IMG/VR virus record: IMGVR_UViG_3300032318_002324
Location: 1-38,859 of that record
DNA: 38,859 nucleotides
From: a virus
Lineage: Duplodnaviria; Caudoviricetes
Strand: one strand, 5' to 3'
Shown here: positions 364 through 27,192 of the stretch, piece by piece
Layout: each line of letters opens with the position of its first letter
Numbering within the stretch: position 1 is the stretch's first letter
Notes under the pieces: generated by a model
The model's input: the letters and a program-made list of their open reading frames with translations, nothing else
Databases searched by the model: none
What the model was told of the DNA's origin: nothing
Program-made: the position numbers and the translations under genes

Positions 364-400
364 ATTTTAGCACAAAAAAAGGAGGGTATCAATCCCTCCT
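364..400 (-). promoter_or_regulatory. composite intrinsic terminator / sigma70-type promoter
   Basis: GGAGGG-ATTGATA-CCCTCC hairpin plus T7; TTGATA-17nt-TAAAAT with the -35 in the loop. Confidence 0.65.
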
Positions 401-406
401 CTTAAA

Positions 407-514
407 TCAACGCATTGCCATTGCTAGTTTTGCTTGATGTTTACGTTGTTCCTTTTCTTTTTGTTGTTTGATTAAAACTAGTTGCCAGTTGTTTTTAGTT
501 TTTACTTGTGACAT
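407..514 (-). CDS. 35-aa basic K/Q-rich peptide downstream of the glutamine riboswitch (not in ORF track)
   Basis: MSQVKTKNNWQLVLIKQQKEKEQRKHQAKLAMAMR; strong SD TAAGGAG; followed by a terminator. Confidence 0.7.
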   Translation of the reverse strand: MSQVKTKNNWQLVLIKQQKEKEQRKHQAKLAMAMR

Positions 515-547
515 TAGGTTTTCTCCTTAGTTGTTTAAATTAAAGAG

Positions 548-761
548 CGTTCCTTCAGTCGGCGTTTGCGTCTATTTTACACCTTTTGGGAGTAATCTGT
601 TTGATTTCCCAAATTAAATCATTACGAGTTTGTGGAGGCATATTTGCCTTCATAACTCTTCCAATAATCAATTGTGCCTGAAGGCAACTAAGTAAGAGTG
701 TTTCCATAGATGAACGATCCGTTCCGCGTCGGCTTACTTCCGACCCAAAATGGGTTGAACG
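548..761 (-). promoter_or_regulatory. tandem glutamine riboswitch-like aptamers (glnA RNA motif)
   Basis: Aptamer 1 (761-720): CGTTCA-ACCC-ATTTT-GGGT-CGGAAGTAAGCCGACGCGGAACG. Aptamer 2 (718-548): ATCGTTCA-TCTAT...ATAGA-CGCAAACGCCGACTGAAGGAACG. P1 CGTTC/GAACG, the CGGAAGTA junction and GAAGGAACG are hallmarks of the motif. Confidence 0.75.
555..707 (-). CDS. 50-aa ORF nested in the second aptamer (not in ORF track)
   Basis: METLLLSCLQAQLIIGRVMKANMPPQTRNDLIWEIKQITPKRCKIDANAD; ATG in the 5' P2 strand, stop in the 3' aptamer core. Confidence 0.6.
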   Translation of the reverse strand: METLLLSCLQAQLIIGRVMKANMPPQTRNDLIWEIKQITPKRCKIDANAD

Positions 762-774
762 TACTGTATATATT

Positions 775-805
775 AGTATAAAAATGAAAAAGTAGCAACA
801 GATAC
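775..805 (-). promoter_or_regulatory. NtcA-binding box with adjacent -10 element
   Basis: GTA-GCAACAGA-TAC (GTA-N8-TAC) at 792-805; TATACT at 780-775 on the minus strand just upstream of aptamer 1. Confidence 0.6.
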
Positions 806-829
806 TTTTACTGTATCGTGCTGCTACTT

Positions 830-1087
830 TTATCTGCGTTTTTTTGTTTCTTTTGGAACATACCCATACATCTTTGGACTTACTTTTCCGTTAGTCCATT
901 TAATTTCTTTGAGTGCTCCCTTTCCATATTCATCATAATAAGTATCAAAAACTTCTACTTTACCACCTGCTTGTACTATATCATATTTTTCTGTATCTTT
1001 TACAACATACGTTACAAGATAAGAGTTGATAGGAAGACTTCCATCTTTTGCATCAATTGGATCGCAATCTTTTTTTAAAATATTCAT
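830..1087 (-). CDS. hypothetical phage protein
   Basis: ORF track 830..1123; the likely start is MNILKKDCD. Confidence 0.7.
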   Translation of the reverse strand: MNILKKDCDPIDAKDGSLPINSYLVTYVVKDTEKYDIVQAGGKVEVFDTYYDEYGKGALKEIKWTNGKVSPKMYGYVPKETKKRR

Positions 1088-1104
1088 AATTATTTTCCTT
1101 GTAA

Positions 1105-1680
1105 TTAGGACCTTCCACCCCATTGAATATCAGGATATGCTTCAGAAACAATATCCTTATTGATTTTATATTTACTTTCAAGTTTTTTGTCTTTTACAAG
1201 ACAAACAATTTCTGCTTCCAGAGGATGAAGTCCTTCAAGCATATTAATAAACATCATTTCTCTACGAATAGAACTTAAACTATCGTTACCACCTCGGACA
1301 AAATTATAAAGCATCGTAAATTCTTTACGAAGAGTTGTTTTGCCACTTCTATCTTGAATTGTTCCCATCGACGTAGTGGAATAGTGCTCCATAGTTTCAA
1401 TTTCCTGTTTTACTCTATCAGAAAGATTTCCACTTACTTTAAAATCTTCTTTAAGATTAGAGTAAGGAATATCACCTTCTGGCAAAACAGATACTACGGT
1501 TTCATCAAAATTCCAAATAAAAATTGCTTTCAATGAATCATGTTCGTATGTTTTAAGTACTTCTACTTTCTTTGCCTTTGACCTTTGTTTTGAAGCAAGA
1601 GCAAGGATTTCAAACACAAATGGATTTGTAGGAAGAATTTCGAGTTCAGTCTCTGTCTTCTTCGTCGTCGTTGTCGTCAT
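1105..1680 (-). CDS. conserved T4-like phage hypothetical protein
   Basis: ORF track; FD..V.S.LPEG..PY and RREMMFINMLEGLHPLEAE motifs typical of a cyanomyophage family. Confidence 0.8.
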   Translation of the reverse strand: MTTTTTKKTETELEILPTNPFVFEILALASKQRSKAKKVEVLKTYEHDSLKAIFIWNFDETVVSVLPEGDIPYSNLKEDFKVSGNLSDRVKQEIETMEHYSTTSMGTIQDRSGKTTLRKEFTMLYNFVRGGNDSLSSIRREMMFINMLEGLHPLEAEIVCLVKDKKLESKYKINKDIVSEAYPDIQWGGRS

Positions 1681-3459: not shown

Positions 3460-4163
3460 TTATATTTTTCAAGTGAGTAGATTCCATTTTTTTCTACAAT
3501 CGCAGAGCACGTATCACACCAATCACCACAGCACATATACAAAAGTTTATTAAAATATCTAACATTTCCATGATGAATATGACCACAAATTACACCATCA
3601 TATTTTTTATCTCTCTGAATACAATATGATGCAATATCAGTCTCATATTGATTGATATATTTTTTTCCTTTCACTGTATTCTTCAAAGCATAGACTAGAG
3701 AAAATTTAAAGAACCTCTCTAACCAAAAACTTAATGGTGTAATAATCTCATATCCCTTATTAAACATCAACTGCTTCCAAGATCCAGAAGAATACTCCGA
3801 ATACTTATCACCATGAACACAAAGAAATTTATTTCCTTTTGAGTCCTTGTGTGTATATTCTTCTACCATTCTGAAGTTCTTATGTTCAAAATCACAATAA
3901 CGACGAATTTCTGCTTCGTGATTTCCAAGAATATAAATGACCTCTGTTCCTTTCTTTGCCAAGTTTAAAATTTGATGAACACATTTTGTATGTTCCTTTG
4001 TCCAAAGGGTATTATATTTTTCCATGCAGTGAATATCAATAATATCACCAACCAATACTAACTTTTTGGTTTTTAAGTTTTTAAGAAAATTATAGAATTT
4101 TTCAGTATCACATCGTGGTGTTCCTAAGTGAACATCAGAAATAAAAACTGTATCGTAAGTCAT
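3456..4163 (-). CDS. calcineurin-like metallophosphoesterase, UDP-2,3-diacylglucosamine diphosphatase (LpxH)-like
   Basis: SDVHLG, GDIID, GNHE, HGD, GHIH and CGDW motifs. Confidence 0.88.
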   Translation of the reverse strand: MTYDTVFISDVHLGTPRCDTEKFYNFLKNLKTKKLVLVGDIIDIHCMEKYNTLWTKEHTKCVHQILNLAKKGTEVIYILGNHEAEIRRYCDFEHKNFRMVEEYTHKDSKGNKFLCVHGDKYSEYSSGSWKQLMFNKGYEIITPLSFWLERFFKFSLVYALKNTVKGKKYINQYETDIASYCIQRDKKYDGVICGHIHHGNVRYFNKLLYMCCGDWCDTCSAIVEKNGIYSLEKYK

Positions 4164-4165
4164 AA

Positions 4166-4327
4166 TCAGAATCTTGATGGAACGTATTCAATATCTTCAA
4201 GAATATTATTCAACATTTCTCCATATTCTTTAGATCGTTTATCTCCTGCGATGAAGGATCTCTGACGTATCCACAGAGCATCTGCCAGAAGTTTGATTTG
4301 GTCTTCTGTGAAGGTTATAGTTTTCAT
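4166..4327 (-). CDS. hypothetical protein
   Basis: ORF track 4166..4405; the likely start is MKTITFTEDQ. Confidence 0.6.
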   Translation of the reverse strand: MKTITFTEDQIKLLADALWIRQRSFIAGDKRSKEYGEMLNNILEDIEYVPSRF

Positions 4328-4433
4328 AGTTAAAAGGTAACTGTTGTATGTATTAGAAATCTTGTGCGACTGATAATATGAACATAATAACACCGAAAAG
4401 TTCAAAGAAAAAGAGTATTAGAAGAAATGCCAT

Positions 4434-4461
4434 AAAAAAAGGAGTTCTTTTGGAACTCCTC
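4434..4461 (-). terminator. intrinsic terminator after psbA
   Basis: GGAGTTC-CAAAA-GAACTCC followed by a T-run. Confidence 0.75.
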
Positions 4462-4483
4462 TATTTATTTTTTAGGTTTTATA

Positions 4484-5563
4484 TCAACCGATGGAAGGTG
4501 CAGTTAAGGCAACTTCAGTAGTAGAAGCAGTGGCAAGATCCAAAGGAAAATTATGTGCGTTCCTTTCGTGCATCACCTCTAATCCAAGTCCAGCACGATT
4601 AAGAATGTCTGCCCATGTATTAATCACATGACCTTGACTATCTTGAATTGACTGGTTGAAATTAAACCCATTCAGGTTGAATGCCATGGTGCTAACTCCA
4701 AGAGCAGTAAACCAAATACCAACGACAGGCCAAGCAGCCAAAAAGAAATGAAGACTACGAGAGTTGTTGAAGGACGCATATTGGAAAATCAAACGACCGA
4801 AATAACCGTGAGCAGCAACAATGTTATAAGTCTCTTCTTCTTGACCAAACTTATAACCGTAGTTTTGCGATTCAGTTTCAGTGGTTTCACGAACCAGTGA
4901 AGAAGTCACAAGAGAACCGTGCATTGCGGAGAAAAGACTTCCTCCGAAGACACCAGCAACTCCAAGCATATGGAAGGGGTGCATCAGGATGTTGTGCTCT
5001 GCCTGGAACACAAGCATGTAGTTAAAAGTACCAGAGATACCCAGAGGCATTGCATCAGAGAAGGAACCTTGTCCAAAAGGATAAACCAGGAATACGGCAG
5101 ATGCAGCAGCAACAGGAGCACTGTAAGCAACCATAATCCAAGGACGCATACCTAGACGGTAAGAGAGTTCCCATTCACGACCCATATAGCAGTAGATGCC
5201 AATGAGGAAGTGAAATACAACAAGTTGGAAAGGTCCACCGTTATAAAGCCATTCATCAAGACTTGCTGCTTCCCAGATAGGATAGAAGTGAAGTCCGATT
5301 GCGTTGCTTGAAGGAACAACAGCACCAGAGATGATGTTGTTTCCGTACATGAGTGAACCAGCAACAGGTTCACGAATACCGTCAATGTCCACTGGGGGAG
5401 CACCGATGAATGCGATAATGAAGCAAGTGGTTGCAGCAAGCAACGTTGGAATCATCAGAACACCAAACCAACCAACATAAAGGCGGTTATTGGTTGAAGT
5501 AACCCACTGGCAAAATTGTTCCCAGGAGTTAGTAGATTGTCTTTGAGCAATTGTAGCAGTCAT
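4484..5563 (-). CDS. psbA: photosystem II reaction centre D1 protein
   Basis: Complete uninterrupted D1 sequence (NRLYVGWFG...[13 protein letters not shown]); Glu at the position equivalent to residue 130. Confidence 0.99.
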
Positions 5564-5585
5564 TTTTCGTTAAAGGGTAAATAAA

Positions 5586-5680
5586 AGTCCAGGGGGAACT
5601 GGATAGTATAATATTTCCCACAACACCCTCCATTGTGGGTATGAGAGACTATGTTTAACCTCCCCATAGGTCTCGGTTAG
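5586..5680 (-). ncRNA. structured psbA 5' leader, PhotoRC-II-like
   Basis: Three hairpins at 5645-5674, 5617-5639 and 5588-5603, between the promoter and the psbA start. Confidence 0.65.
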
Positions 5681-5735
5681 GTAGAGGATTAATGTTAAGA
5701 AATATGAGGATTTCGTAACATTTGTTTACCTATTT

Positions 5736-5764
5736 ATCATACTACGGTTTTCTTCTGGTGTCAA
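5736..5764 (-). promoter_or_regulatory. sigma70-type psbA promoter
   Basis: TTGACA-17nt-TATGAT. Confidence 0.8.
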
Positions 5765-5766
5765 GC

Positions 5767-5791
5767 AAAAAAAGTCCCCTTTCGGGGACTG
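5767..5791 (-). terminator. intrinsic terminator
   Basis: AGTCCCC-GAAA-GGGGACT plus T-run. Confidence 0.85.
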
Positions 5792-5795
5792 AAAA

Positions 5796-6008
5796 TTATT
5801 CTACTACTTCCGTTTCTGAAAGTGGAATTTCTTCTGGTTCTGGTTCTGGAAGAGTTACACCTGTTTGTGTAAGATACTCAATCGCACCTTGAACCTTCAA
5901 AAAAAGTTCTCTTTTTGCTGTAGATTTAGTTTGCAGTCCTTCCAATTCAAGGGAGAGGTCTTGTGCTTGCTTTACAAGATTTGCAAGATGTTCTTGTTGT
6001 TCGGTCAT
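5796..6008 (-). CDS. small coiled-coil hypothetical protein
   Basis: ORF track; late promoter upstream and terminator downstream. Confidence 0.75.
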   Translation of the reverse strand: MTEQQEHLANLVKQAQDLSLELEGLQTKSTAKRELFLKVQGAIEYLTQTGVTLPEPEPEEIPLSETEVVE

Positions 6009-6029
6009 AAAAAATTAATTAATTCGATT

Positions 6030-6037
6030 TATTTATA
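6030..6037 (-). promoter_or_regulatory. T4-type late promoter
   Basis: TATAAATA on the minus strand. Confidence 0.65.
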
Positions 6038-6073
6038 TTATACCACAAGTAGTCAAATATTGAAAGTTATATC

Positions 6074-6081
6074 TATAAATA
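6074..6081 (+). promoter_or_regulatory. T4-type late promoter
   Basis: TATAAATA 25 nt upstream of the plus-strand operon. Confidence 0.75.
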
Positions 6082-6105
6082 CTTACAAACCTTACTCACA
6101 GAACA

Positions 6106-6567
6106 ATGAAAAGATTAGCACTTATCTTTTCGTTATTCTTTACTACTCCTGCTTTTGCTGGTGAAATCACATCAAAAATCACTGACTCCATTCAATTAAG
6201 CGTTCAGGGTGCAGCGGTACAATCAGAGAGAGTCGGTGCCTCATATGCAGTTTCAGGCACTAATATTAATGTAACAACTCTTGGAGGAGTTGGTGGAGCA
6301 GGTTCTTATGGCATCAACACAAACGGACAAGCATTTAGTTTCTCTGAAACATCAATTACTGCAGATGTTGATGTTACCTCTCAGTCGGCAGCTTCTGGAA
6401 CAATTGCTTCTCCCAACCTTTATAGCAACTCTACTACTCAATTAGGTGGAGATAAGGGTTCTCTTGCTGGTACTTTAAGCGGAACTGGTGTTCCAACAAT
6501 TACTGCTGGTGGTTCAGGAACAACTGGAACAGCACAACGTAGCGTTGAATTGAGCGTATTTAAGTGA
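6106..6567 (+). CDS. exported Gly/Ser/Thr-rich protein
   Basis: Signal peptide ending in PAFA; beta-rich mature part. Confidence 0.8.
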   Translation: MKRLALIFSLFFTTPAFAGEITSKITDSIQLSVQGAAVQSERVGASYAVSGTNINVTTLGGVGGAGSYGINTNGQAFSFSETSITADVDVTSQSAASGTIASPNLYSNSTTQLGGDKGSLAGTLSGTGVPTITAGGSGTTGTAQRSVELSVFK

Positions 6568-6926
6568 GACATATAACTCTCGGACTGGTTACAGTTCTGG
6601 GAGTTATAAGTCCTTCATACGCTGGACCCGTAACTCCCAACTTCACTAGTGGGACCATTACATCAGAAACTAAAACACGTACTGAAGTTATTGAAACTAT
6701 CAGGCAAATAGAATATACTACTGGAACATCTTATACAGTAACTGGCACCAACATCAATATACCAGGAACTCCTGCTCCTGGTATGAATTATACAATTCAA
6801 ACTCAAGGTGCTCCATTCCAATTTAGTGAGACTTATCTGACTCCTGGAGTGGCAAAAGAAACATGGATAGATCGCAAAACTACCGAAGATTCGGTAACAA
6901 ATTCAATATCTGTCTTTACACAATAA
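6564..6926 (+). CDS. exported Thr-rich protein
   Basis: GTG start overlapping the previous stop; signal peptide ending in SYA, then GPVTPNFTSG. Confidence 0.8.
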   Translation: MRHITLGLVTVLGVISPSYAGPVTPNFTSGTITSETKTRTEVIETIRQIEYTTGTSYTVTGTNINIPGTPAPGMNYTIQTQGAPFQFSETYLTPGVAKETWIDRKTTEDSVTNSISVFTQ

Positions 6927-7474
6927 CTGGAATATTATTATTAACACTTGCAGGTTCCACAAGAAGTAAAGCACAACAAGCACCAAGCAATACAAATATT
7001 GCAGGACCCTCAGCATCTGCTACTGGTAACGTAACTAACCAGGCAGTTCAGGTGCTTCAGGGTCCTTATGCTTTGAACACTTATGGTGGTGGAGTTTCTT
7101 GTCAGGGACCGACAATGAGTGTTGCACCATTTATACTGGGTAATACGAATGCAAGTCAAGATCCACAGTCGTTTCAAACATACAGTGGCAATGCTGGTAT
7201 CTCTTTAGGATTTAATTTTCCGCTTGATGGTTCATTACAAGAACTTTGTAAGGCAAGAGCTCGTGTAGAAATTTCAAGACAACAAGCAGAAGCAGATAAA
7301 GCAAGACTTGACTTTGAATTGGTGAGACTTTTGAAATGTGGAGAAGCAATCAAATCTGGTATTACATTTCACCCACAAAGTCCCTATGCAAAAATTTGTG
7401 CTGATATTATTGTGAAGTATCCAAGAGTACAGGATGTAGCAAATGGAAATCAAACCAATCCAAATAAGAAGTGA
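6863..7474 (+). CDS. exported or membrane-anchored hypothetical protein
   Basis: Hydrophobic N-terminal segment; four Cys in the mature part (SCQGP, LC, KCG, ICAD). Confidence 0.8.
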   Translation: MDRSQNYRRFGNKFNICLYTITGILLLTLAGSTRSKAQQAPSNTNIAGPSASATGNVTNQAVQVLQGPYALNTYGGGVSCQGPTMSVAPFILGNTNASQDPQSFQTYSGNAGISLGFNFPLDGSLQELCKARARVEISRQQAEADKARLDFELVRLLKCGEAIKSGITFHPQSPYAKICADIIVKYPRVQDVANGNQTNPNKK

Positions 7475-8108
7475 ACCTCCACCTATCATTCCAACGATAG
7501 AACCTCCTGTAACTCGCAAAACAGAGAGATCTATGATACCTCAAGTTGATATGCCAATTATCAACATGCCAGATACCACTATAAAGTATCCAGTGATCGA
7601 TGTTCCGACTCAAGAAGAGTTTGATGCTGCCGTAAGAGCAGAACAAAAAAAGAAAGAAGAAGAAAAAGAAGAAAAATCCAGAGGACTTCCAGATACTACA
7701 CCTACCCCCCAACTGCCCCCAGTTATTCAAACCCCTCAGGATAATCAGGTTATTTCCGATCAATCTACTACAAATACGAATTTAGGAGTGCCCGTCATTG
7801 AAGTACCAATCATCGGAGAAGTTCCAATTCCCCCAAAAGAACAGGTTATTCTTGCTGGCACCACTGCTACTGCTTCTGTTGCTGCGGCTATTATTGGCAA
7901 ATCTATGGTGGAATGGATGGTAGGTAAAATGAAACCTATCGTTCAACAAATATTCATAAGAGGCAAGAAACTCTTGAACAGAGACCTTACCCCCTATGAA
8001 TTGCAACTTTATTTTGCGGCAGAATTAGATAGAAAGAATCTCAAATTACTTAAAAAAGAATGGAAGAAAGAAAAGGTAAACCAATACAAAAAAGCACACG
8101 ATAAGTAA
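7443..8108 (+). CDS. Pro-rich protein with a C-terminal hydrophobic segment
   Basis: Pro-rich linker, charged stretch, AGTTATASVAAAIIG segment, basic tail. Confidence 0.75.
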   Translation: MEIKPIQIRSEPPPIIPTIEPPVTRKTERSMIPQVDMPIINMPDTTIKYPVIDVPTQEEFDAAVRAEQKKKEEEKEEKSRGLPDTTPTPQLPPVIQTPQDNQVISDQSTTNTNLGVPVIEVPIIGEVPIPPKEQVILAGTTATASVAAAIIGKSMVEWMVGKMKPIVQQIFIRGKKLLNRDLTPYELQLYFAAELDRKNLKLLKKEWKKEKVNQYKKAHDK

Positions 8109-8513
8109 TTACTTCTTACGTTTAGCAGACAGTTCATCAAAATCTTTCTTCTTTGTTCCACCATCATAAGTCCAAGCATATCCTTCAGAAATCATACGAT
8201 CATTAAGACATACATCATCAACATATAACCTTCCAAGAATTCTCCCATACTTTTCAGTTGAGTCTGGAAGTTCTGTTTTAATAAGAATATTTTTTTTACT
8301 ATCAAGATTTTTTTTCAACCATTCTTTGACTTCTAATCCAAGTGTTTTTTCTTTGAGATCGGTTGTACGACTTTCTGGAGTATCAACACCACTAAGGCGT
8401 ACTCGCTTAGTAAGAGAAATATCGAACCCAAGATCAATGTCCGCATCGATTGTGTCACCATCAACTACTCTTAATACTTGTTTTACTCTATAGATATATG
8501 GGTCTTTATCCAT
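8109..8513 (-). CDS. thermonuclease (staphylococcal nuclease-like)
   Basis: VVDGDTID, RVRLSGVDTPES and KYGRILG motifs. Confidence 0.9.
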   Translation of the reverse strand: MDKDPYIYRVKQVLRVVDGDTIDADIDLGFDISLTKRVRLSGVDTPESRTTDLKEKTLGLEVKEWLKKNLDSKKNILIKTELPDSTEKYGRILGRLYVDDVCLNDRMISEGYAWTYDGGTKKKDFDELSAKRKK

Positions 8514-8725
8514 TAGAATGGCAATTTAAACTTCTCAGTATTTAGTTTAGGAATAGGAAGTTTCTCAAATGCCTTTGATACTTGCTTCTCCACAACAGCA
8601 CCAACAAATGCTTCTGGATTATCTAGAATCTTTTGTGCCTTTTGATAAGTTACATAAGCACCATAACAAATTGCTCCACTAATGGTGAGACTTGTGATTG
8701 ATAGAATCAGACTCAGATGTTTCAT
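8513..8725 (-). CDS. small membrane-anchored protein
   Basis: N-terminal TM segment; coupled to its neighbours. Confidence 0.7.
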   Translation of the reverse strand: MKHLSLILSITSLTISGAICYGAYVTYQKAQKILDNPEAFVGAVVEKQVSKAFEKLPIPKLNTEKFKLPF

Positions 8726-8831
8726 TTTGCATCTCCAAATATGCTAGTCTTAATATGTAGTAAATTACATAGGCAGTAAATATCAAACCAGAACCAAGAA
8801 CTATAATAACTCCCCAAGGCAAATTACTCAT
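8679..8831 (-). CDS. small membrane protein (50 aa, not in ORF track)
   Basis: MSNLPWGVIIVLGSGLIFTAYVIYYILRLAYLEM... Confidence 0.6.
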   Translation of the reverse strand: MSNLPWGVIIVLGSGLIFTAYVIYYILRLAYLEMQNETSESDSINHKSHH

Positions 8832-9024
8832 TCCATCCCCCCTCTTGTTTGTGTATCCATACCTTTAAATCTTTCACATATTTTCTTAATATTTGTGCTT
8901 GTTCTTCATGCCAAAGATCACCCGTTTCCAATTGAAGACGGGTGTGATTGTCTATGGCTTTAAGAATTTGGTGAATTGGAGCATTCCAACATTCACGTTT
9001 GGGAGTATTCCACTCTCTTGGCAT
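8824..9024 (-). CDS. hypothetical phage protein
   Basis: ORF track; GAGG SD. Confidence 0.7.
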   Translation of the reverse strand: MPREWNTPKRECWNAPIHQILKAIDNHTRLQLETGDLWHEEQAQILRKYVKDLKVWIHKQEGGWNE

Positions 9025-9033
9025 AATACCTCA

Positions 9034-9138
9034 TTATTTCTTCTTACCACCGTTTTTTGCTTTTTTTGCTGTAGCATTACCTTGATTCTGTTTGGATCCA
9101 GCAGAACCTTTCTTACCTTTGTTTGCTGATTTTGCCAT
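9034..9138 (-). CDS. 34-aa Lys/Gly/Ala-rich basic peptide (not in ORF track)
   Basis: MAKSANKGKKGSAGSKQNQGNATAKKAKNGGKKK; TAATG overlap with the upstream stop. Confidence 0.6.
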   Translation of the reverse strand: MAKSANKGKKGSAGSKQNQGNATAKKAKNGGKKK

Positions 9139-9494
9139 TATGCCCCTGTGCGAGGTTGAACAAATCCTTCACCATCTTCTACTTTGGTTTCTAGTGCCTC
9201 AACTCTTGCTTCAAGAGTTTCTGGTGGTGCTTCAAGAGCAGGTGGTTCTGGTGGTGTTTCTACAAACTCTTCTCTTTTAGGTTCTTGTTTTTTTTCATCT
9301 TCATCATCTCCACCTTTCTTCATTGTATTAATACCAAAAGTAGCAGCAGATGCAGTGAAAACTGTCGCAATAAAGGTGGGATCCATCTTAGATAGAGCAC
9401 CCGAATAACTTGCGGTGAGAAGAGCAGCAGACCAACCCAAAATACATATACGAATTAGTTGTCCCATAGCATTTTCGTTTTTCTTGTTAGTCAT
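9138..9494 (-). CDS. two-TM membrane protein, candidate holin
   Basis: Two hydrophobic segments and a charged C-terminal tail, directly after the lysozyme. Confidence 0.55.
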   Translation of the reverse strand: MTNKKNENAMGQLIRICILGWSAALLTASYSGALSKMDPTFIATVFTASAATFGINTMKKGGDDEDEKKQEPKREEFVETPPEPPALEAPPETLEARVEALETKVEDGEGFVQPRTGA

Positions 9495-9512
9495 TGTAGT
9501 TTGTGATTGTGG

Positions 9513-10184
9513 TTAACCTTTTTTCCAAGATTCACCTTCTGCTTTTCTTCTACGAGCAAGTCCTGCTTCTACATTAGAACCAGGATTTCTGTAGAGGTAA
9601 AGCGCATCGGGAACTTTGTCCCATTCTTTATTCTTCAGTGTACGAGTAATAGTATTAAAGTTATCGCCACCATAAAACCCAGCACCAAGATTATAAGCAA
9701 AAGAAAGTAGGGCACCTCTTTTACCATCAGACATTTCATTCCAGTGTGGAATTTTACGAAGTGATGGAAGAAACTGGTTCTTACACTGACTAATCAGAAG
9801 TTCATCTGCTTCTTGTTGTGTAATTTGGTCTCCCATTTGGAATGCAGATCCATCTTTCTTGCGAGTTGAACCCCAACCAATTGTGATTGGAAGTCCACCT
9901 GAGAGAGGATCTGGATATGCTTTCAGATGGCATCCCTCGAACTCTTTGATTAATTTAAGGCCCATCATAGGCATATCGTCACCACCTGCTACGGGAGCGG
10001 CAACAGATGGTCCTGATGCTGGTGCCGCATTACCCTTTTTTCCTCTATAAATCTCTGCCCAATCTACATTATCTTCTAGATATTTGACTGGTAAATTATC
10101 TTCTAACCACTGAACTGCCTTGACATGGTTGGGGTTTTTCTCATCATAAAATTTGAAAAAGTTATGTAAATCAATTCTTGCCAT
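9513..10184 (-). CDS. phage lysozyme (GH24) with an extra N-terminal domain
   Basis: FEG...AYPD...TIGWG catalytic pattern, SFAYNLG, GLARRRKAE. Confidence 0.92.
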   Translation of the reverse strand: MARIDLHNFFKFYDEKNPNHVKAVQWLEDNLPVKYLEDNVDWAEIYRGKKGNAAPASGPSVAAPVAGGDDMPMMGLKLIKEFEGCHLKAYPDPLSGGLPITIGWGSTRKKDGSAFQMGDQITQQEADELLISQCKNQFLPSLRKIPHWNEMSDGKRGALLSFAYNLGAGFYGGDNFNTITRTLKNKEWDKVPDALYLYRNPGSNVEAGLARRRKAEGESWKKG

Positions 10185-10308
10185 TGTTTCCTCCGAAATA
10201 CTTTTGATAAAGGTCGTTTGCTTCTTTATGTTTTCCGTGATTTGTAAGATCTTTTATGATCTTAAGAATCTTTCTTTTAAAATCAATCGAAGATTCTTCC
10301 CCACCCAT
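10171..10308 (-). CDS. small hypothetical protein (45 aa, not in ORF track)
   Basis: MGGEESSIDFKRKILKIIKDLTNHGKHKEANDLYQKYFGG...; GGAGG SD; bridges the two hydrolase genes. Confidence 0.5.
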   Translation of the reverse strand: MGGEESSIDFKRKILKIIKDLTNHGKHKEANDLYQKYFGGNNGKN

Positions 10309-10954
10309 CGTTTCCTCCTGGGCACCAACGGTGCTTAAGAACTGCTTTGGTGTAGATAGTTTTCTTACCGTTTGTTACAGGACCAGTATAATTATCATTT
10401 AATGAACCATAAGGATCATTAATGTAATACCCCTTACCATCTGGTGTCTTACCAATGACTACACACATGTGCCCACCAGTAGGAGAAGATAGAGAACCAC
10501 GGTGCAAAATACCAATAACAACTGGTTTTCCTCTATCAAGACTCTTATCAATGTCAGCAAAAGAAAGATTGTAACTAAAGTGTGACTTAATACCATAACC
10601 TGCGAGAACCTTTGTCTGAACCGCATGGTCAGTTGTGTCACCAATCGCAAATACTTTTTTGACATATTCATCATCACCCTTGATGCTTCCTGGCTTGAGG
10701 AAAGCAAGGCACATAGCACACGATGAACTGTTACAAGTTCTATGAGCATCTCTGTAGTTATCTACTTGGTTGAAATATGGAACATCAAGAACTGCTGGGG
10801 TAGGTGGTTTGGTTCTAAACATTCCGATCCAATCGGTATCTGCGTCATCCATAAACTCAACAGGAAGGTTATCTTCTAACCATTGAACTGCTGCTACATG
10901 GTTTGCATTATTCTCATCATAATACTTAAAAAAGTTATGAAGATCTAAGGTCAT
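10283..10954 (-). CDS. C39-like cysteine peptidase
   Basis: VPYFNQ...TCNSSSCAM, GGHM and INDPYG (Cys-His-Asp). Confidence 0.88.
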   Translation of the reverse strand: MTLDLHNFFKYYDENNANHVAAVQWLEDNLPVEFMDDADTDWIGMFRTKPPTPAVLDVPYFNQVDNYRDAHRTCNSSSCAMCLAFLKPGSIKGDDEYVKKVFAIGDTTDHAVQTKVLAGYGIKSHFSYNLSFADIDKSLDRGKPVVIGILHRGSLSSPTGGHMCVVIGKTPDGKGYYINDPYGSLNDNYTGPVTNGKKTIYTKAVLKHRWCPGGNDGWGRIFD

Positions 10955-11048
10955 TTTGCCTCATCTATAACACTATTTTATTTAGATGATGATGCTTTTA
11001 CTAAAATCAAAAATAAAATAATTCCATAATAAGCAGCAAAATAATATA

Positions 11049-11210
11049 TCATCTATAATACTCCTGAATTTTATCCAGGACTTGATTGAGATATTTGTGT
11101 GCTAATCCTTTTGGGTCTGATCCATAACCAATCTGTTCTCTATACAACTGATCTTTTAACTTCTCAACATGACACCTAATTTCTTCTTTTGAAAATTCGT
11201 TTCTAGGCAT
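11049..11210 (-). CDS. small hypothetical protein (53 aa, not in ORF track)
   Basis: MPRNEFSKEEIRCHVEKLKDQLY...AHKYLNQVLDKIQEYYR; GGAG SD. Confidence 0.65.
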   Translation of the reverse strand: MPRNEFSKEEIRCHVEKLKDQLYREQIGYGSDPKGLAHKYLNQVLDKIQEYYR

Positions 11211-11276
11211 ATAATAAAAAATCTCCACCCATATTTAGAGCAGAGATAAGTAGGAATACTTAATTATGTTAGGGTC

Positions 11277-11384
11277 TCACCACACTCCAGGAATCACTTG
11301 CCCAGTCAGTGCATAGGCACCCATAGCAGCCATAATTCCAATCATAGCAAACCAACCATTAATACGTTCTGCTCGTTCGTTCAT
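11277..11384 (-). CDS. hli: high-light-inducible protein (35 aa, not in ORF track)
   Basis: AERINGWFAMIG...TGQVIPGVW HLIP motif; AAGGAG SD. Confidence 0.92.
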   Translation of the reverse strand: MNERAERINGWFAMIGIMAAMGAYALTGQVIPGVW

Positions 11385-11395
11385 TGTTTTTCTCC

Positions 11396-11482
11396 TTAGT
11401 AAGTTTCAGAAAGTTGATTGACAGAATGTGCAAGAAGCACAAAGAAAGTAATACTAGTAATAGTAAAAATTACTTCCCCCAT
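11396..11482 (-). CDS. 28-aa single-TM peptide between the hli genes (not in ORF track)
   Basis: MGEVIFTITSITFFVLLAHSVNQLSETY; TGATG coupling to hli. Confidence 0.55.
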   Translation of the reverse strand: MGEVIFTITSITFFVLLAHSVNQLSETY

Positions 11483-11691
11483 CAGATTACACCAAAAAAG
11501 AGGTGTCCAGTTGTCGCATAAGATACAAGTGCAGCAACAAATCCAAGCATAGCAACACGTCCATTCAGTTTTTCTGCACGTTCGTTATGAGTTTCAAGTG
11601 CATAACGTTCTGCATCAGATTGAGACACATACATTTTAGGTTCTTTAGCAAACATATTTTGTTGCCCGAACTCATTAGTTGTTACAGTCAT
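11482..11691 (-). CDS. hli: high-light-inducible protein
   Basis: NMFAKEP N-terminus and AEKLNGRVAMLG motif. Confidence 0.95.
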   Translation of the reverse strand: MTVTTNEFGQQNMFAKEPKMYVSQSDAERYALETHNERAEKLNGRVAMLGFVAALVSYATTGHLFFGVI

Positions 11692-11700
11692 TTACGTTTT

Positions 11701-11754
11701 GTTACGAAACATTACAAAAGTATATAGCAAAAAGAAAGGGGTGTCAAGCACCCA
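11701..11754 (-). promoter_or_regulatory. hli promoter with an HLR1-like (RpaB) direct repeat
   Basis: TTGACA(11747-11742)-17nt-TATACT; GTTACGAA-AC-ATTACAAA at 11701-11718 covers the expected start site. Confidence 0.65.
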
Positions 11755-11760
11755 ATTGTA

Positions 11761-12468
11761 TCAATTATCACTTTTCCTTTCTATCCTATATGCTCTTCCT
11801 GCTTCATCGAATCCATCAATTTCGATATATTCCGTTTCTTTATTAATATCATCATTTGGAACTAAACAAAGATATGGACCAGGTATTCTATCAGTATTAC
11901 TATAATTTCTATGACCAGAAATATGGTAATGTGCGGAAACAATTTGTTTGCCTGGATTTTTTAATTTATATCCTTGATCTGCCATTAATTTGGCAATTTT
12001 ATTATCACATCCAGGTTTACCTAAAGTAAATTCCATCTCATCAGTTGTTGTGATTGGAGTCTTAAACAACCAAACATCTTGAGACGATGAATTGTTAAAT
12101 GGAGCAATACACCATTCACCATTTTCACAAAATACTTCCCATCTAGTTAAAGCAAGAAAAACTTTATCCAAATCAGCATCTTTTACAACTGCAATACTAT
12201 CATCTAAGATAATATCTGCATTTGCAATTATGCAAATTTGATCTTTTAAATTTTTATTACAAAATTCAAAAAGATCTTTATAAGTAGGTCTTTCTTCTCT
12301 TTGAATTATTTCTATTTTATCTGATTTAAAATTTAATTTAGAATCATCAGAAATGAAAACATATATCTTTTCAATGTTTTCATTTTCCAAATTCTCGTGA
12401 ATACAAGTAAGATATTCACTATGTCTCTGATAATCAGGAGATCTAAAATATTCTATTAATAAATTCAT
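11761..12468 (-). CDS. glycosyltransferase-like protein (GT-A type)
   Basis: IIANADI, ALTRWE, SQDVW and GCDN motifs; island context. Confidence 0.6.
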   Translation of the reverse strand: MNLLIEYFRSPDYQRHSEYLTCIHENLENENIEKIYVFISDDSKLNFKSDKIEIIQREERPTYKDLFEFCNKNLKDQICIIANADIILDDSIAVVKDADLDKVFLALTRWEVFCENGEWCIAPFNNSSSQDVWLFKTPITTTDEMEFTLGKPGCDNKIAKLMADQGYKLKNPGKQIVSAHYHISGHRNYSNTDRIPGPYLCLVPNDDINKETEYIEIDGFDEAGRAYRIERKSDN

Positions 12469-13361
12469 TGAGTTTTAATCCAATCCATTAAATTTACTTG
12501 AGGTCTCCATCCAAAAATGGTTCTCAATTTTCCATTATTTGCAAGAGTAGTTCGTGACTCTCCAATTCTTGCTGGAATATTTATTTGATTTTCCGAAATG
12601 GCATTTGCAATTTCATTGATTGAGTAATTAATTCCATTACCTACATTATAAAGTTCTCCATAAAATTCACTATCAATATCTTTTGTAGCAGCAAGAATAT
12701 TTGCTTGAACTACATCAGATACGTGGGTAAAGTCCCTACGTTGTTCCCCATCCCCAACAATTGTAAGAGGTTCTCCATCTTTTCTTTGACGTAAGAAAAT
12801 ACCAATAACTGGAGCATATTGTCCTTTAATTGGTGATCTTTCACCATAAACATTAAAGTATCTAAAAATAACTGTTTTAAGACCAAATAAATCATTATAC
12901 ATTTTGCAGAGTTTTTCTCCTGCAACTTTAGATACTGAATAAGGATTCAAACAATCATCAGGTTGATTTTCATGATTGGGTGGTTTATTGTATCCATAAC
13001 CAGAAGATGTAGAAGAATAAATTACTTTTTTTACTCCTGCTTCTCTAGCACATTGAAGAACAGTACAAGTACCAACACAATTTTTTGTAACTGCTTCAAT
13101 TGGATTTAAAATTGCTGGTTGAATTCTAGATTCTGCAGCAAGATGAAAAACATAATCAACCTCCTCATATAGAGATCTAGTTTTTTTGTAATCACAAATA
13201 TCATACTTATAATTTTGTGATTTATCATTCCAATAAAATTCTTCATTGGATTCTGCACTTTCATTATCAATTGCAATAACTTCGTGCCCCTGTTTGATCA
13301 ATTCATCAACAAGAGTTGAACCAATAAATCCTGCTGCTCCCGTAACTAAACATTTAGTCAT
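12465..13361 (-). CDS. NAD-dependent nucleotide-sugar epimerase/dehydratase
   Basis: TGAAGFIG, YSVSK (YxxxK), RYFNVYG, RDFTHV. Confidence 0.93.
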   Translation of the reverse strand: MTKCLVTGAAGFIGSTLVDELIKQGHEVIAIDNESAESNEEFYWNDKSQNYKYDICDYKKTRSLYEEVDYVFHLAAESRIQPAILNPIEAVTKNCVGTCTVLQCAREAGVKKVIYSSTSSGYGYNKPPNHENQPDDCLNPYSVSKVAGEKLCKMYNDLFGLKTVIFRYFNVYGERSPIKGQYAPVIGIFLRQRKDGEPLTIVGDGEQRRDFTHVSDVVQANILAATKDIDSEFYGELYNVGNGINYSINEIANAISENQINIPARIGESRTTLANNGKLRTIFGWRPQVNLMDWIKTQ

Positions 13362-14109
13362 AATTTTCCGTCTCTGTTCTTTTAATCTTAATAGACTCGT
13401 AAATTTGTGTTTTTAATTTTGTGGAAGAATACTCATGAGATTCTCTATCCAACCAAACAATATTAATTGGAATGTTTTCTCCCGTATAAGGTCTGGTTTT
13501 ATAATCAGTGCCAAGAAACCTTACGTTATAATCACCACTTTTCAAATAGTCAAGATATTCTTCTTCTACTTTATAAGTAACCACATCATCAATATATTTG
13601 ATGCTTCTAAGAATCTCCGTCCTTTCTTCAACACTTTGAACTGGTTGAAGTTTATATGATCTTTCCACAGATGGATCTTCATGAAGAGCAACTGTCAAAT
13701 GATTACAATATAATTTAGCATCCTTAAACATACGAATATACCCAGGATGAATTATATCAAAAGCACTTGCAATAATACCTTTCTTTAATGGACGAGTTTT
13801 CTTCCATTCTTCAACATCAATACCTTTATCATCAATAAAAATGTCTGCAGTAGGTTTACAAAACATTGGAAATAGTTCGTGATATTTGTACCCCCATTCA
13901 TTCAATTGTTTTGCAGTCAATTCAGTCCAATCAATACCAGATCCTTTCCCTCTGGCAGTTTGCATAATGATATAGTTTCCTTCATCATATAAACAATTAA
14001 CCTGCTCAACCATAAACGGAATTGGTGTAGAATTTATATAATCAGGTTTTCCCAATTCATTATTAGGAGTGTTACAAAGAGTCCCATCAACATCAAAACA
14101 ATATCTCAT
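13354..14109 (-). CDS. fusion of a HAD phosphatase and a cytidylyltransferase-family nucleotidyltransferase
   Basis: FDVDGTL...TARG...KP.AD.FIDDK, then AFDIIHPGY...ER..IL..IKYID...YSST. Confidence 0.85.
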   Translation of the reverse strand: MRYCFDVDGTLCNTPNNELGKPDYINSTPIPFMVEQVNCLYDEGNYIIMQTARGKGSGIDWTELTAKQLNEWGYKYHELFPMFCKPTADIFIDDKGIDVEEWKKTRPLKKGIIASAFDIIHPGYIRMFKDAKLYCNHLTVALHEDPSVERSYKLQPVQSVEERTEILRSIKYIDDVVTYKVEEEYLDYLKSGDYNVRFLGTDYKTRPYTGENIPINIVWLDRESHEYSSTKLKTQIYESIKIKRTETENYD

Positions 14110-14113
14110 TGCA

Positions 14114-14866
14114 TTATTTTTTCTTAGTACACATAAAGTAATAAGAATTTGAATGATTTCTCATTCTAATTCTGAAATTATATTCATGAATATCAAAATA
14201 CTTACTCATAATTAAATCCCAAGGTTCCCTTGTTTCATAAACAGTTTTATGAAGAACATACAAATTGCCATTGGGATTAAATTTAGGATGATCTTGATGA
14301 TATCCTTTTTCGTCTCTGGTATCTAGAAATAAAGCAATGCTACCGAAAAATACACCATTTTCATCTAAATGATTGTATGCATTTTTAAAAAATTGATCTA
14401 ATTGATTTTCATGGAAATGTTCAATAACCTCCCATGAAGTAATTATATCAAATTTTATATCAATGCCGTTTTCATCTTGAATAAAAAATTCTTTAGTTAA
14501 GTCTGCATTTTTTAGAATTGTTTTATTGTTCTCATTATTCCAATTAGACTGTTTATAAACTCCACAACTACCATCCAATCCAACACAAATATTTGTTTCA
14601 GGAAACGAATTGGCATCTACAATAAATGCTCCTCCCCCACATCCCAAATCCAACCAATTAATTTTCTCATCATCGGTCAAATCAAATCTATCAATTGCTT
14701 CTTCAATTAAATCAATGTCTGTACTATTATCCTCTCCAGCGGAACAATTTAATTCTAAAGATTTCAAAGAAAAATTTTCATCAGATTCATATGAATCTAA
14801 ATGAATTTTATAGTCTGGTTCTTCGTAAGCAAACTTGCTATTAGTTTTAACAATAACTTCGGTCAT
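14114..14866 (-). CDS. class I SAM-dependent methyltransferase
   Basis: LDLGCGGG and FDIITSWEVIEH; the likely start is MTEVIVK. Confidence 0.85.
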   Translation of the reverse strand: MTEVIVKTNSKFAYEEPDYKIHLDSYESDENFSLKSLELNCSAGEDNSTDIDLIEEAIDRFDLTDDEKINWLDLGCGGGAFIVDANSFPETNICVGLDGSCGVYKQSNWNNENNKTILKNADLTKEFFIQDENGIDIKFDIITSWEVIEHFHENQLDQFFKNAYNHLDENGVFFGSIALFLDTRDEKGYHQDHPKFNPNGNLYVLHKTVYETREPWDLIMSKYFDIHEYNFRIRMRNHSNSYYFMCTKKK

Positions 14867-15369
14867 TAAATTACTCCATGTAAAAATATTTGATGAACAC
14901 ATTCAACAACACCGTAGTCAGTGCTATTAATATAGTAGTTCCAAATTGCATTAATTGAATGTGTTCTTAAACTGTTGTTGGGGTTAAACCCTGTGAGAAC
15001 CCCATAAGAAACTTTATTTTTCTCACACCATTCCTGTGAATTTAGCATATTTTTTGATTCTCCACCAGAGCTCATAATAATCACAAGAGTATCTTTTTCA
15101 ACATAATACTCCAAAAACTTCTGATATGCATTTTCATATCCAAAGTCATTGGTAAGCATTGTAAGCATTGAAGGATCAGAAAGAATAGAAACTTTCTTCC
15201 GATGAAACTTCATATAATCTTGCGAGATATGAGATGCTACAGAATTGCTGCCACCATTACCAAGAATAATAATTCTTTCATGAGCATCAAATGCCTTACA
15301 AAACTTTTCAAACTCCTCTTCAATATGAGCACCCTGAAGTGCATTAATGTATTCTACAAATGGATTCAT
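14866..15369 (-). CDS. gmhA: SIS-domain phosphoheptose isomerase
   Basis: GNGGS...ASH, NDFGYE, SSGGES.NM, E..H. Confidence 0.85.
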   Translation of the reverse strand: MNPFVEYINALQGAHIEEEFEKFCKAFDAHERIIILGNGGSNSVASHISQDYMKFHRKKVSILSDPSMLTMLTNDFGYENAYQKFLEYYVEKDTLVIIMSSGGESKNMLNSQEWCEKNKVSYGVLTGFNPNNSLRTHSINAIWNYYINSTDYGVVECVHQIFLHGVI

Positions 15370-16313: not shown

Positions 16314-16314
16314 A

Positions 16315-19191: not shown

Positions 19192-19213
19192 TTTTATTAT
19201 CCCAAATCAATTT

Positions 19214-27066: not shown

Positions 27067-27113
27067 GGGTCGTATTTGACTCCACCAGTTCTGTTATAGT
27101 CCATCCGTGACTA
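27067..27113 (-). ncRNA. tRNA-adjacent structured RNA candidate (possibly a partial manA-like motif)
   Basis: TAGTC-ACGGATG-GACTA hairpin, then ACAGAACTGGTGGA and GTC-AAATAC-GAC-CC; GC-rich, between the tRNA and gmd. Confidence 0.35.
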
Positions 27114-27185
27114 TGGGAGTACTGGGAGTTGAACCCAGACTAACCCGTTATAAGCAGGCCGCTCTAACCATTAAGCTATACTCCC
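27114..27185 (-). tRNA. trnI: tRNA-Ile(UAU)
   Basis: Cloverleaf: acceptor GGGAGTA/TACTCCC, anticodon arm GCCTG-CT-TAT-AA-CGGGT, T arm CTGGG-TTCAACT-CCCAG; no encoded CCA. Confidence 0.93.
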
Positions 27186-27192
27186 AAAAATT

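What the first reader, a model, noticed from the sequence alone, without database searches (positions are those of the whole stretch)
407..805. Phage nitrogen-sensing module: NtcA box, tandem glutamine riboswitch and a small basic peptide
Seen: a perfect GTA-N8-TAC box only 11 nt upstream of a TATACT -10, two glnA-motif-like aptamers, then a 35-aa K/Q-rich ORF with a strong SD and its own terminator. None of this is in the ORF track. Known: in cyanobacteria NtcA represses the gif genes from sites overlapping the core promoter, and a glnA-type glutamine riboswitch activates gifB, which encodes the glutamine synthetase inactivator IF17. Inference: the phage copies this two-layer logic, so the peptide is made only in nitrogen-replete hosts. 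It could act on glutamine synthetase or tune infection. The peptide shows no obvious sequence match to IF7/IF17 by eye.
Basis: partly seen in the sequence, partly recalled or inferred. Interest (0 to 1): 0.88.

Follow-up and report, generated by a model that had tools for sequence, protein, structure and literature searches.

The report
Interlocked glutamine sensor enclosing a gene
A virus of cyanobacteria carries a small gene unit whose RNA leader likely folds as two interlocked glutamine-sensing cores, one of them wrapped around a whole 50-codon gene, and is predicted to switch on a short downstream peptide when the host has plenty of nitrogen; the hosts keep relatives of that peptide behind their own glutamine switches.

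Summary
The sequence parts are real: GTA-N8-TAC box 805..792, glutamine-aptamer motifs, 35-codon ORF with SD and terminator. Three corrections. (1) The two cores are interlocked, not a linear tandem: cross-pairs hold in 136/136 and 133/136 distinct elements against 88–89/136 within units, and they change together on a tree. (3) The peptide is not IF7/IF17-like. It is a deletion-trimmed member of an unnamed helix family that picocyanobacteria keep behind glutamine-II riboswitches (27 of 32 host loci). The box is conserved (93/118 against 6.3 by shuffle), but here it also forms a terminator arm, and the closest relative has lost it. Folding predicts that glutamine frees the peptide's SD and buries the nested start. 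Glutamine binding, NtcA binding and the peptide's target are untested. Glutamine riboswitches and NtcA sites in cyanophages are published; I found no paper on this layout. This scan noted the same layout earlier in at least 39 other genomes.

The parts
786..834 (-). Hairpin with T tract just behind ORF 830..1123, likely that gene's terminator; its 3' arm contains the NtcA-type box
   Evidence: I2; -22.9 kcal/mol, 0 of 200 shuffles; only 4 of 93 boxed upstream regions (window included) have the box in such a hairpin
792..805 (-). NtcA-type box GTA-N8-TAC, centred about -30 to -35 from the likely start (repressor-type position; inferred)
   Evidence: conserved in 93 of 118 distinct upstream regions, shuffles mean 6.3, max 13; lost (ATA) in closest relative L054
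767..780 (-). Candidate -10 elements: TATACT 780..775, TAATAT 775..770 (position shared with relatives), late-promoter-like TATATA 772..767
   Evidence: start site not mapped
735..761 (-). Outer core, 5' half: CGUUCA 761..756, short P2 hairpin 755..743, CGGA 742..739 (G740 = G23 equivalent), AGUA E-loop strand 738..735
726..734 (-). Central helix, 5' strand (AG CCGA CG), pairs with 564..557
   Evidence: G727:C564 column pairs in 133 of 136 (T-A 85, G-C 22, A-T 23, T-G 3); top mutual-information pair
711..725 (-). Inner, circularly permuted core: GGAACG 725..720, G719 (second linchpin), loop, CGUUCA 716..711
   Evidence: G719 column pairs with C568 column in 133 of 136, with 2 G-C and 1 G-U swaps
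571..710 (-). P2 of the inner core: 5-bp stem UCUAU 710..706 / AUAGA 575..571 closing a 130-nt coding loop
   Evidence: stem pairs covary across 76 long inserts (pair 3: T-A 35, C-G 36, T-G 4, mismatch 1)
555..707 (-). Nested 50-codon gene (PHROG 504-like; two invariant cysteines; predicted helical hairpin); AUG in the P2 stem, stop UGA inside the outer core
   Evidence: E 0.0011; pN 0.30, pS 0.68, 528 of 528 pairs
547..570 (-). CGCA 570..567 (inner C23), central helix 3' strand 564..557, GAA E-loop strand 556..554, GGAACG 553..548, C547 (outer C60)
   Evidence: G740:C547 column pairs in 136 of 136 (47 G-C, 89 C-G)
523..547 (-). Expression platform: anti-SD CUCUUUA 547..541 pairs with SD UAAGGAG 529..523, extended by AGG of the aptamer strand
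   Evidence: z -2.75; CTCTTTA in 42 of 47 elements of this class
407..514 (-). 35-codon basic helical peptide; a deletion of about 119 nt joins the first four codons of the usual YRG (DUF4278-like) gene to the second peptide gene
   Evidence: vs L120; shared by L054; junction 504/503 bridged without gap by RNA-library contigs of 3 studies; host-only profile E 2.9e-5
370..403 (-). Intrinsic terminator-like hairpin 403..377 and T tract

Best explanation
This T4-like cyanophage carries a two-gene unit whose leader likely folds as two interlocked glutamine-aptamer cores, one closing around a 50-codon gene, and glutamine binding is predicted to open the ribosome site of the downstream 35-residue peptide while burying the nested gene's start. 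Steps. (1) Inferred: host NtcA, active when nitrogen is short, binds 805..792 over the -35 region and damps transcription. (2) Shown by covariation: the first unit's 5' half pairs with the last unit's 3' half (outer core with full E-loop and G740-C547 linchpin); the middle forms a circularly permuted inner core (linchpin C568-G719); an 8-position helix joins them. (3) Shown: the inner P2 loop is a protein gene under selection, with its AUG in the stem and its stop in the outer core. (4) Predicted: without glutamine, 553..541 pairs over the SD; with glutamine that strand is drawn into the outer core and the SD opens, so the peptide is made in nitrogen-replete cells, while the nested start is locked in P2. 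Ribosomes on the nested gene would unfold the sensor, so the two compete. (5) Shown: the peptide belongs to a helix family that picocyanobacteria keep under glutamine-II riboswitches. Inferred: it is a short binding helix aimed at a host nitrogen-control protein, used by the phage to tune host nitrogen flow (my odds: glutamine synthetase 20%, PII or another nitrogen regulator 35%, something else 45%).
For: Cross-pairs 136/136, 133/136, 133/136 and 134/136 against 88-89/136 for the within-unit alternatives. These are the top Watson-Crick mutual-information pairs among 30 distinct cores. On a tree of 125 downstream regions the partners change together: 28 and 29 changes, 29 jointly; linchpin 4, 4, jointly 4; the within-unit control gives 4, 6, jointly 10. 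G23-C60 is the ligand-dependent linchpin (PMC11477058, passage). 111 of 111 long P2 loops have an ATG 3-7 nt into the stem and an open frame; other frames open in 1 and 0 of 111; shuffles 492 of 11100; pN below pS in 528 of 528 pairs. SD opening cost in the window falls from 5.8 to 2.8 kcal/mol when the aptamer strand is blocked; 0 of 30 linker shuffles match; the real drop exceeds the shuffle mean in 106 of 117 elements. Box in 93 of 118. Host relatives: RF01704 at cut-off directly upstream in 6 of 6 and 21 of 26 loci, a box in 3 of 6 and 21 of 26. RNA-library contigs of 3 studies, two or more at 95-99% identity, cover the element.
Against: No binding, reporter or start-site data. Rfam scores stay under the cut-offs (34.2 of 35; 18.8 of 33). 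The P1 columns are invariant, so their cross-pairing is inferred from neighbouring pairs. The inner core has no AGUA/GAA E-loop and may not bind. 23 dropped loci have AAA for GAA. The window's minimum-energy fold is not the interlocked one, which costs about 14 kcal/mol in a model blind to tertiary contacts and ligand. The box doubles as a terminator arm here and is ATA in L054. In most relatives the box lies further upstream (73 boxes at -62..-56), where the sign of control is unclear. The nested gene has only a weak SD. A ribosome stopping at 555 could itself open the SD, which would blur the predicted switch.
Confidence: 0.62

Rival explanations
1. Two independent glutamine aptamers in a row, each with a local AG-CCGA-CU hairpin.
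For: Each unit has CGUUCA...GGAACG ends; Rfam aligns the first unit alone. The 2010 glnA alignment lists the second unit of S-PM2 as a stand-alone aptamer (PMC2864571 supplement 5, part 129 of 282). PMC9481103 counts 157 doublets as tandem (passage).
Against: Within-unit linchpins and P3 pairs fail in 47-48 of 136, exactly where the cross-pairs hold. The window itself would have G-G and C-C linchpins. Unit 1 lacks GAA and unit 2 lacks AGUA.
Confidence: 0.06
2. In ORF-bearing forms the sensor is a relic or a fixed scaffold: translation of the nested gene keeps it unfolded, and the peptide is made by coupling to that translation, whatever the glutamine level.
For: The nested stop lies 26 nt before the SD, next to the anti-SD strand. 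A 5-bp stem across 130 nt is weak, and the free fold does not form it.
Against: P2 stems covary across long inserts; core columns stay invariant in forms with and without inserts; inserts are gained or lost many times on the tree (21 and 33 changes) with the core kept.
Confidence: 0.14
3. In this phage the GTA-N8-TAC is only the 3' arm of the upstream terminator; NtcA control has been lost and only the riboswitch acts.
For: Strong hairpin with T tract; 11 boxes in the window; L054 keeps the hairpin but has ATA; box-to-TATATA gap is 19 nt here against 13 in 62 of 93.
Against: S-SRM01 (L001) keeps an intact box at the same -44 position despite other changes. The 3' half TGCTAC resembles host boxes before related peptides. 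One stretch can serve both roles.
Confidence: 0.22
4. The 35-residue peptide is a phage glutamine synthetase inactivator, working like IF7/IF17.
For: Same regulatory setting as gifB; small and basic (pI 10.7). 124 of 127 first downstream ORFs in the set carry YRG, and three tested relatives match DUF4278 weakly.
Against: No similarity to the IF17 C-terminal region (hhalign probability 0.7%). Only 2 arginines, where IF7 needs three conserved ones. DUF4278 is the part of IF17 that is dispensable for inhibition (PMC6316151, passages), and this peptide lacks even that.
Confidence: 0.2

Closest known systems
Glutamine-I riboswitch (glnA RNA, Rfam RF01739), e.g. Synechocystis gifB leader (PMC6212724)
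   Same: CGUU...GGAAGUA...GAAGGAACGC core, G23-C60 linchpin, NtcA-type box upstream, predicted ON switch by freeing the SD, DUF4278-like gene downstream in most relatives.
   Different: The outer core is interrupted by a second, circularly permuted core in P3; P2 may hold a whole gene; the target here has no DUF4278 and no IF7-like part; it is on a phage.
Tandem glutamine riboswitches (PMC2864571; 157 doublets in PMC9481103)
   Same: Two aptamer-like units in one leader; the S-PM2 element is in the 2010 alignment.
   Different: Covariation shows the units pair across each other and share one expression platform; they are not independent units in a row.
Glutamine-II (Downstream-peptide) riboswitch genes of picocyanobacteria (RF01704)
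   Same: Same helix peptide family downstream (27 of 32 host loci), NtcA-type box near the start, CGCA...GGAACGG core like the inner one.
   Different: Host leaders are single aptamers with a 3' pseudoknot; the window scores 18.8 of 33 bits.
Glutamine riboswitches reported in phages (S-CREM1, PMC9964418; Melnitz, PMC9004378) and NtcA sites in cyanophages (PMC3037559)
   Same: The S-CREM1 hit is the compact form of this element; NtcA sites were predicted in all 16 cyanophage genomes studied.
   Different: In the passages read these are listed as plain Rfam or motif hits, with no fold, nested gene or peptide family described.
IF7/IF17 (gifA/gifB) and PirA
   Same: Small basic proteins made under nitrogen excess, NtcA-repressed.
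   Different: No detectable homology to the IF17 C-terminal region; PirA was not compared by sequence.

Membership tests
Glutamine-I riboswitch (RF01739) | Score at or above the Rfam cut-off (35 bits) | tested here: not met
   34.2 bits, E 1.4e-5, first unit only; compact relative L120 reaches 37.9
Glutamine-I riboswitch (RF01739) | P1 strands, P2, J2/3 G22 and the 23-60 Watson-Crick linchpin | tested here: met
   Met in the interlocked reading: 136 of 136 outer, 133 of 136 inner
Glutamine-I riboswitch (RF01739) | E-loop (AGUA/GAA) leading into P3 | tested here: met
   Outer core only, AGUA 738..735 with GAA 556..554; absent from the inner core; that this motif is an E-loop is recalled knowledge
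Glutamine-I riboswitch (RF01739) | Selective L-glutamine binding and ligand-dependent gene output | not testable with these tools
   Only a folding prediction of SD release
Glutamine-II riboswitch (RF01704) | Score at cut-off and 3' pseudoknot | tested here: not met
   18.8 of 33 bits with broken pairs
Tandem (pseudo-cooperative) riboswitch | Two self-contained aptamers in series | tested here: not met
   Within-unit pairs 88-89 of 136 against cross-pairs 133-136 of 136; tree test
NtcA-repressed promoter | GTA-N8-TAC at a conserved place overlapping the core promoter | tested here: inconclusive
   Conserved in 93 of 118 and near -30 to -35 here, but also a terminator arm, lost in L054, start site unmapped
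NtcA-repressed promoter | 2-oxoglutarate-dependent NtcA binding | not testable with these tools
   needs gel shift or footprint
IF7/IF17 glutamine synthetase inactivators | C-terminal region with three conserved arginines | tested here: not met
   hhalign probability 0.7% against 8 IF17-like C-terminal regions; best hmmsearch E 0.032
IF7/IF17 glutamine synthetase inactivators | Inhibits glutamine synthetase | not testable with these tools
   needs an enzyme assay
DUF4278 (PF14105) | YRG-repeat domain | tested here: not met
   No Pfam hit and no YRG in the window's peptide; relatives' first ORFs score 20-25 bits, under the 25.3 cut-off
Unnamed picocyanobacterial helix-peptide family behind glutamine-II riboswitches | N-x-L-x-L-I-(R/K)...K..R(L)..AQ(L) helix | tested here: met
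   Host-only profile finds the window's peptide at E 2.9e-5 (search size set to 1000); profile-profile 98%. The host set was itself found with the phage profile, so this is a reciprocal check, not an independent one

The most novel reading that the evidence does not exclude
One RNA with two interlocked glutamine pockets acts as a two-way, possibly cooperative switch: high glutamine shuts the gene inside its own aptamer and opens the gene behind it. The P2 loops are cassette slots that gain and lose genes (none, one or two). This would be a riboswitch whose sensor contains its own regulated protein gene, used by the most common cyanophages to read and steer host nitrogen status.
Probability: 0.35. 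Interest if true: 0.9.

Novelty: new variant of a known kind. Interest (0 to 1): 0.75.

Why it matters
Riboswitch aptamers are taken to be non-coding and to lie upstream of the genes they control. Here covariation and codon patterns put a selected protein gene inside an aptamer stem, and show that some elements listed as tandem glutamine aptamers are interlocked. About 1400-2600 stored viral stretches hold the motifs (estimates), and cultured phages give a natural series: none (S-PM2, S-CREM1), one (S-SRM01) or two (P-SSM4) nested genes. That makes cooperativity, the folding-versus-translation contest and phage sensing of host nitrogen directly testable. It also points to an unnamed host peptide family under glutamine control whose target is open.

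Tried and rejected
Rfam at cut-off: no glutamine hit in the window. Promoter scan found nothing at the module. Pfam, PHROGs and NCBIfam: no family for the 35-residue peptide. ESM Atlas: no usable hit for the nested protein and only unnamed or coiled-coil clusters under 0.9 for the peptide. Foldseek of the nested-protein model: only unnamed viral (mostly cyanophage) proteins, one at E<=0.001; nothing in PDB. Profile search of 1.84 billion representatives: 71 hits at E<=0.001; the 10 looked up were unnamed or 'hypothetical'. Complex prediction of the peptide with a picocyanobacterial glutamine synthetase monomer: no verdict (0.00, 0.40, 0.01; mark 0.32), used neither for nor against. Nested-protein profile in 301 cyanobacterial genomes: one clear hit, in a 189-kb phage-like contig; 7 weak hits inside long ORFs taken as chance. 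Motif scan of bacterial and archaeal genomes: 35 stretches, 7 with the full element (judged phage-derived from record titles and contig sizes, not checked gene by gene), 1 partial, 27 not parsed. Boxes at -19/-20 in relatives (15 matches) were dropped as RNA hairpins over the -10 region. RNA runs hold contigs only: no start, strand or level; little cover on 4000-20000 apart from short psbA pieces is no proof of transcription. Yfr6's 33-residue peptide (PMC1242208) was considered as the host helix and dropped, because PMC6212724 calls that gene DUF4278-encoding. Exact-string searches of the 2010 alignment file failed because of gaps. Ames and Breaker 2011 and Doron 2016 were not held.

Full report
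Setting. The window is a 38.9-kb virus record with psbA, ribonucleotide reductase and primase genes and a PhotoRC-II RNA. The module matches 223 phage records, nearly all Synechococcus, Prochlorococcus or other cyanophages, best S-SRM01 from a reservoir. It is therefore a T4-like cyanophage, probably freshwater (inference; the RNA runs holding it are freshwater and estuary).

Observation. Rfam finds nothing at cut-off. Below cut-off it finds one unit, 763..716, RF01739 34.2 bits against 35, lacking the GAA strand. The second unit is split: its 5' end (716..711) and its 3' part (570..547) are 140 nt apart, and ORF 707..555 lies between them.

Data set. Two motif scans of viral contigs (120 loci each, from estimated 1400 and 2600 stretches), one of cellular genomes (35 loci), six annotated phages and the window gave 282 sequences. 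The junction parsed in 244, both ends in 199, and 136 elements were distinct. Dropped: 38 without a junction match, 17 cut at the 5' side, 28 without a 3' parse. Of those 28, 23 have AAA for GAA and by eye keep the cross linchpin, 4 are cut and 1 is chance. The first pattern fixed position 3 of the second junction, which limits variation there.

Fold. In glutamine-I aptamers G23 pairs with C60 on ligand binding (PMC11477058, passage). Position 23 of the first unit pairs with position 60 of the last in 136 of 136 (47 G-C, 89 C-G), but with its own unit's in 88. Position 23 of the second unit pairs with position 60 of the first in 133, against 88. A central-helix pair holds in 133 (T-A 85, G-C 22, A-T 23, T-G 3), against 88-89 for local hairpins. 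Two positions of that helix are mostly C-A mismatches. These cross-pairs lead the mutual-information ranking among 30 distinct cores (132 rows). On a tree of 125 downstream regions the partners change together (28, 29, jointly 29; 4, 4, jointly 4), while a within-unit control does not (4, 6, jointly 10) (the marker is short, so counts are rough). So there is an outer core with the full AGUA/GAA loop and an inner, circularly permuted core without it. The P1 columns never vary, so their cross-pairing is inferred. The window's minimum-energy fold differs, and the interlocked fold costs about 14 kcal/mol in a model without tertiary contacts or ligand.

Nested gene. The first P2 is long (190-229 nt) in 35 of 136 and the second (138-195 nt) in 76; both in 15, neither in 40. 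All 111 long loops have ATG 3-7 nt into the stem and an ORF over at least 85% of the loop; 71 of 76 second-loop ORFs stop at the same place in the outer core. Other frames are open in 1 and 0 of 111, shuffles in 492 of 11100. Among 33 window-type genes pN is 0.30 and pS 0.68, with pN lower in 528 of 528 pairs, and the closing stem covaries across the insert. All 110 distinct proteins have two cysteines 31-41 apart. An alignment of the window's protein and 78 of 105 others gives a confident helical hairpin (pLDDT 87) with only unnamed viral look-alikes. GenBank annotates several as hypothetical proteins. The family was not found in 300 cyanobacterial genomes outside one phage-like contig.

Switch. 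In the window CUCUUUA (547..541, starting at C60) pairs with the SD, extended by AGG of the aptamer's 3' strand. Blocking that strand lowers the SD opening cost from 5.8 to 2.8 kcal/mol; none of 30 linker shuffles does so; the drop exceeds the shuffle mean in 43 of 44 and 63 of 73 elements of the two linchpin classes. With whole leaders the folded state is easier to open by 1 kcal/mol or more in 103 of 128 and harder in 6 (no shuffle control there). This predicts ON with glutamine, as shown for gifB (PMC6212724, abstract start and passages). The same fold buries the nested AUG (inference).

Promoter. GTA-N8-TAC lies within 120 nt upstream in 97 of 118 distinct regions, 93 after removing hairpin matches at -19/-20; shuffles give 6.3 (max 13 of 200), other spacers 3-7, control windows 3 of 89 and 4 of 104. 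A sigma-70-like pair fits in 91 of 118, and TA(A/T)ATA follows the box by 13 nt in 62 of 93, like the cyanophage late promoter NATAAATA (PMC2984593, passage). In the window the box centres near -30 to -35, a repressor-type place (PMC8092223, passage). Against: 11 boxes in the window, the box is a terminator arm here, L054 has ATA, and most relatives place it near -50, where the sign is unclear.

Peptide. The first downstream ORF has YRG in 124 of 127; the window, L054 and one 5-codon ORF lack it. Against L120, the window and L054 miss about 119 nt, which joins MSQV to the second peptide gene. RNA-library contigs of three studies cross the junction without a gap, so it is not an assembly error. 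A profile of 32 phage helices (window plus the 31 YRG-free ones of 37) hits 5 of 301 cyanobacterial genomes and 35 of 151 in one picocyanobacterial family. Of 32 host loci fetched, 27 have a glutamine-II riboswitch at cut-off directly upstream; 24 have a box; only 9 of the 26 later ones have YRG. A host-only profile finds the window's peptide again. There is no similarity to IF17 C-terminal regions, and DUF4278 is dispensable for inhibition (PMC6316151, passages). The target stays open.

What is known. Glutamine riboswitches in cyanophages and other marine phages: PMC9964418, PMC9004378, PMC9602691 (passages). NtcA sites in cyanophages: PMC3037559 (passages). Tandem glnA RNAs: PMC2864571 (passages; one of 282 parts of its alignment file, lists the second S-PM2 unit alone) and PMC9481103 (passages; 'nested', 'phage', 'intertwined' not found). 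I found no description of the interlocked fold, the nested gene or the helix family in searches. I read no paper whole. Ames and Breaker 2011, Doron 2016 and two supplements of the 2010 paper could not be opened and may bear on novelty. Earlier notes of this scan report the same layout in at least 39 genomes and the host helix link; I saw them after my own, and they are not independent support.

Verdict. A real and well-supported architecture, a new variant of the glutamine riboswitch. Fold and coding are shown by comparison; ligand binding, NtcA control, switch direction and the peptide's target are predicted or inferred. Interest 0.75.

Noticed in passing
window 5697..5603 (-), before psbA 4484..5563: PhotoRC-II RNA, 79.1 bits; a known cyanophage motif.
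   Followed up: no
window 27113..27186 (-): tRNA-Ile with anticodon TAT.
   Followed up: no
window 3853, 5018, 7417, 10424, 29242, 31863, 32116, 33844, 37196, 38175: Ten further GTA-N8-TAC boxes; 11 in all against 4.7 expected, none of 100 shuffles reaching 11.
   Followed up: no
relatives, about -26..-1 before the aptamer (e.g. L003, L006, L008): A short hairpin covers the sigma-70 -10 region in 89 of 90 loci that have a distal TA(A/T)ATA (no shuffle control). It would be the 5' end of a transcript from a late-type promoter, suggesting two starts. The window lacks it.
   Followed up: partly
L005:1016-1201 (P-SSM4): A manA RNA lies just upstream of the module, after pstS; both P2 loops carry genes in this cultured phage.
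   Followed up: no
L135, L147, L183 and 20 more: Variants with AAA in place of the GAA loop strand that keep the cross linchpin; L214 has a shortened 3' side.
   Followed up: partly
L304, L308, L315, L325 and others (cyanobacterial genomes): Many DUF4278 proteins carry a second, non-IF7 C-terminal region (H..N....L.RR...A...G) and had no glnA aptamer by my pattern.
   Followed up: no
L062, L077 against L004, L025, L032: The helix occurs before the YRG repeats, after them, or alone, so it behaves as a separate module. A hydrophobic peptide (MLV..EIL.AS...) replaces it as second gene in several loci such as L005, L007 and L018.
   Followed up: partly
window 9513..10184 and 10283..10954 (-): Two adjacent ORFs match the two halves of one PHROG (3617, endolysin-related), possibly a split gene.
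   Followed up: no
PMC2864571 supplement 5, part 129: Two metagenomic glnA rows carry a different structured insert in the P3 loop, one closed by the same AG-CAAC/GUUGA-CU type of helix.
   Followed up: no
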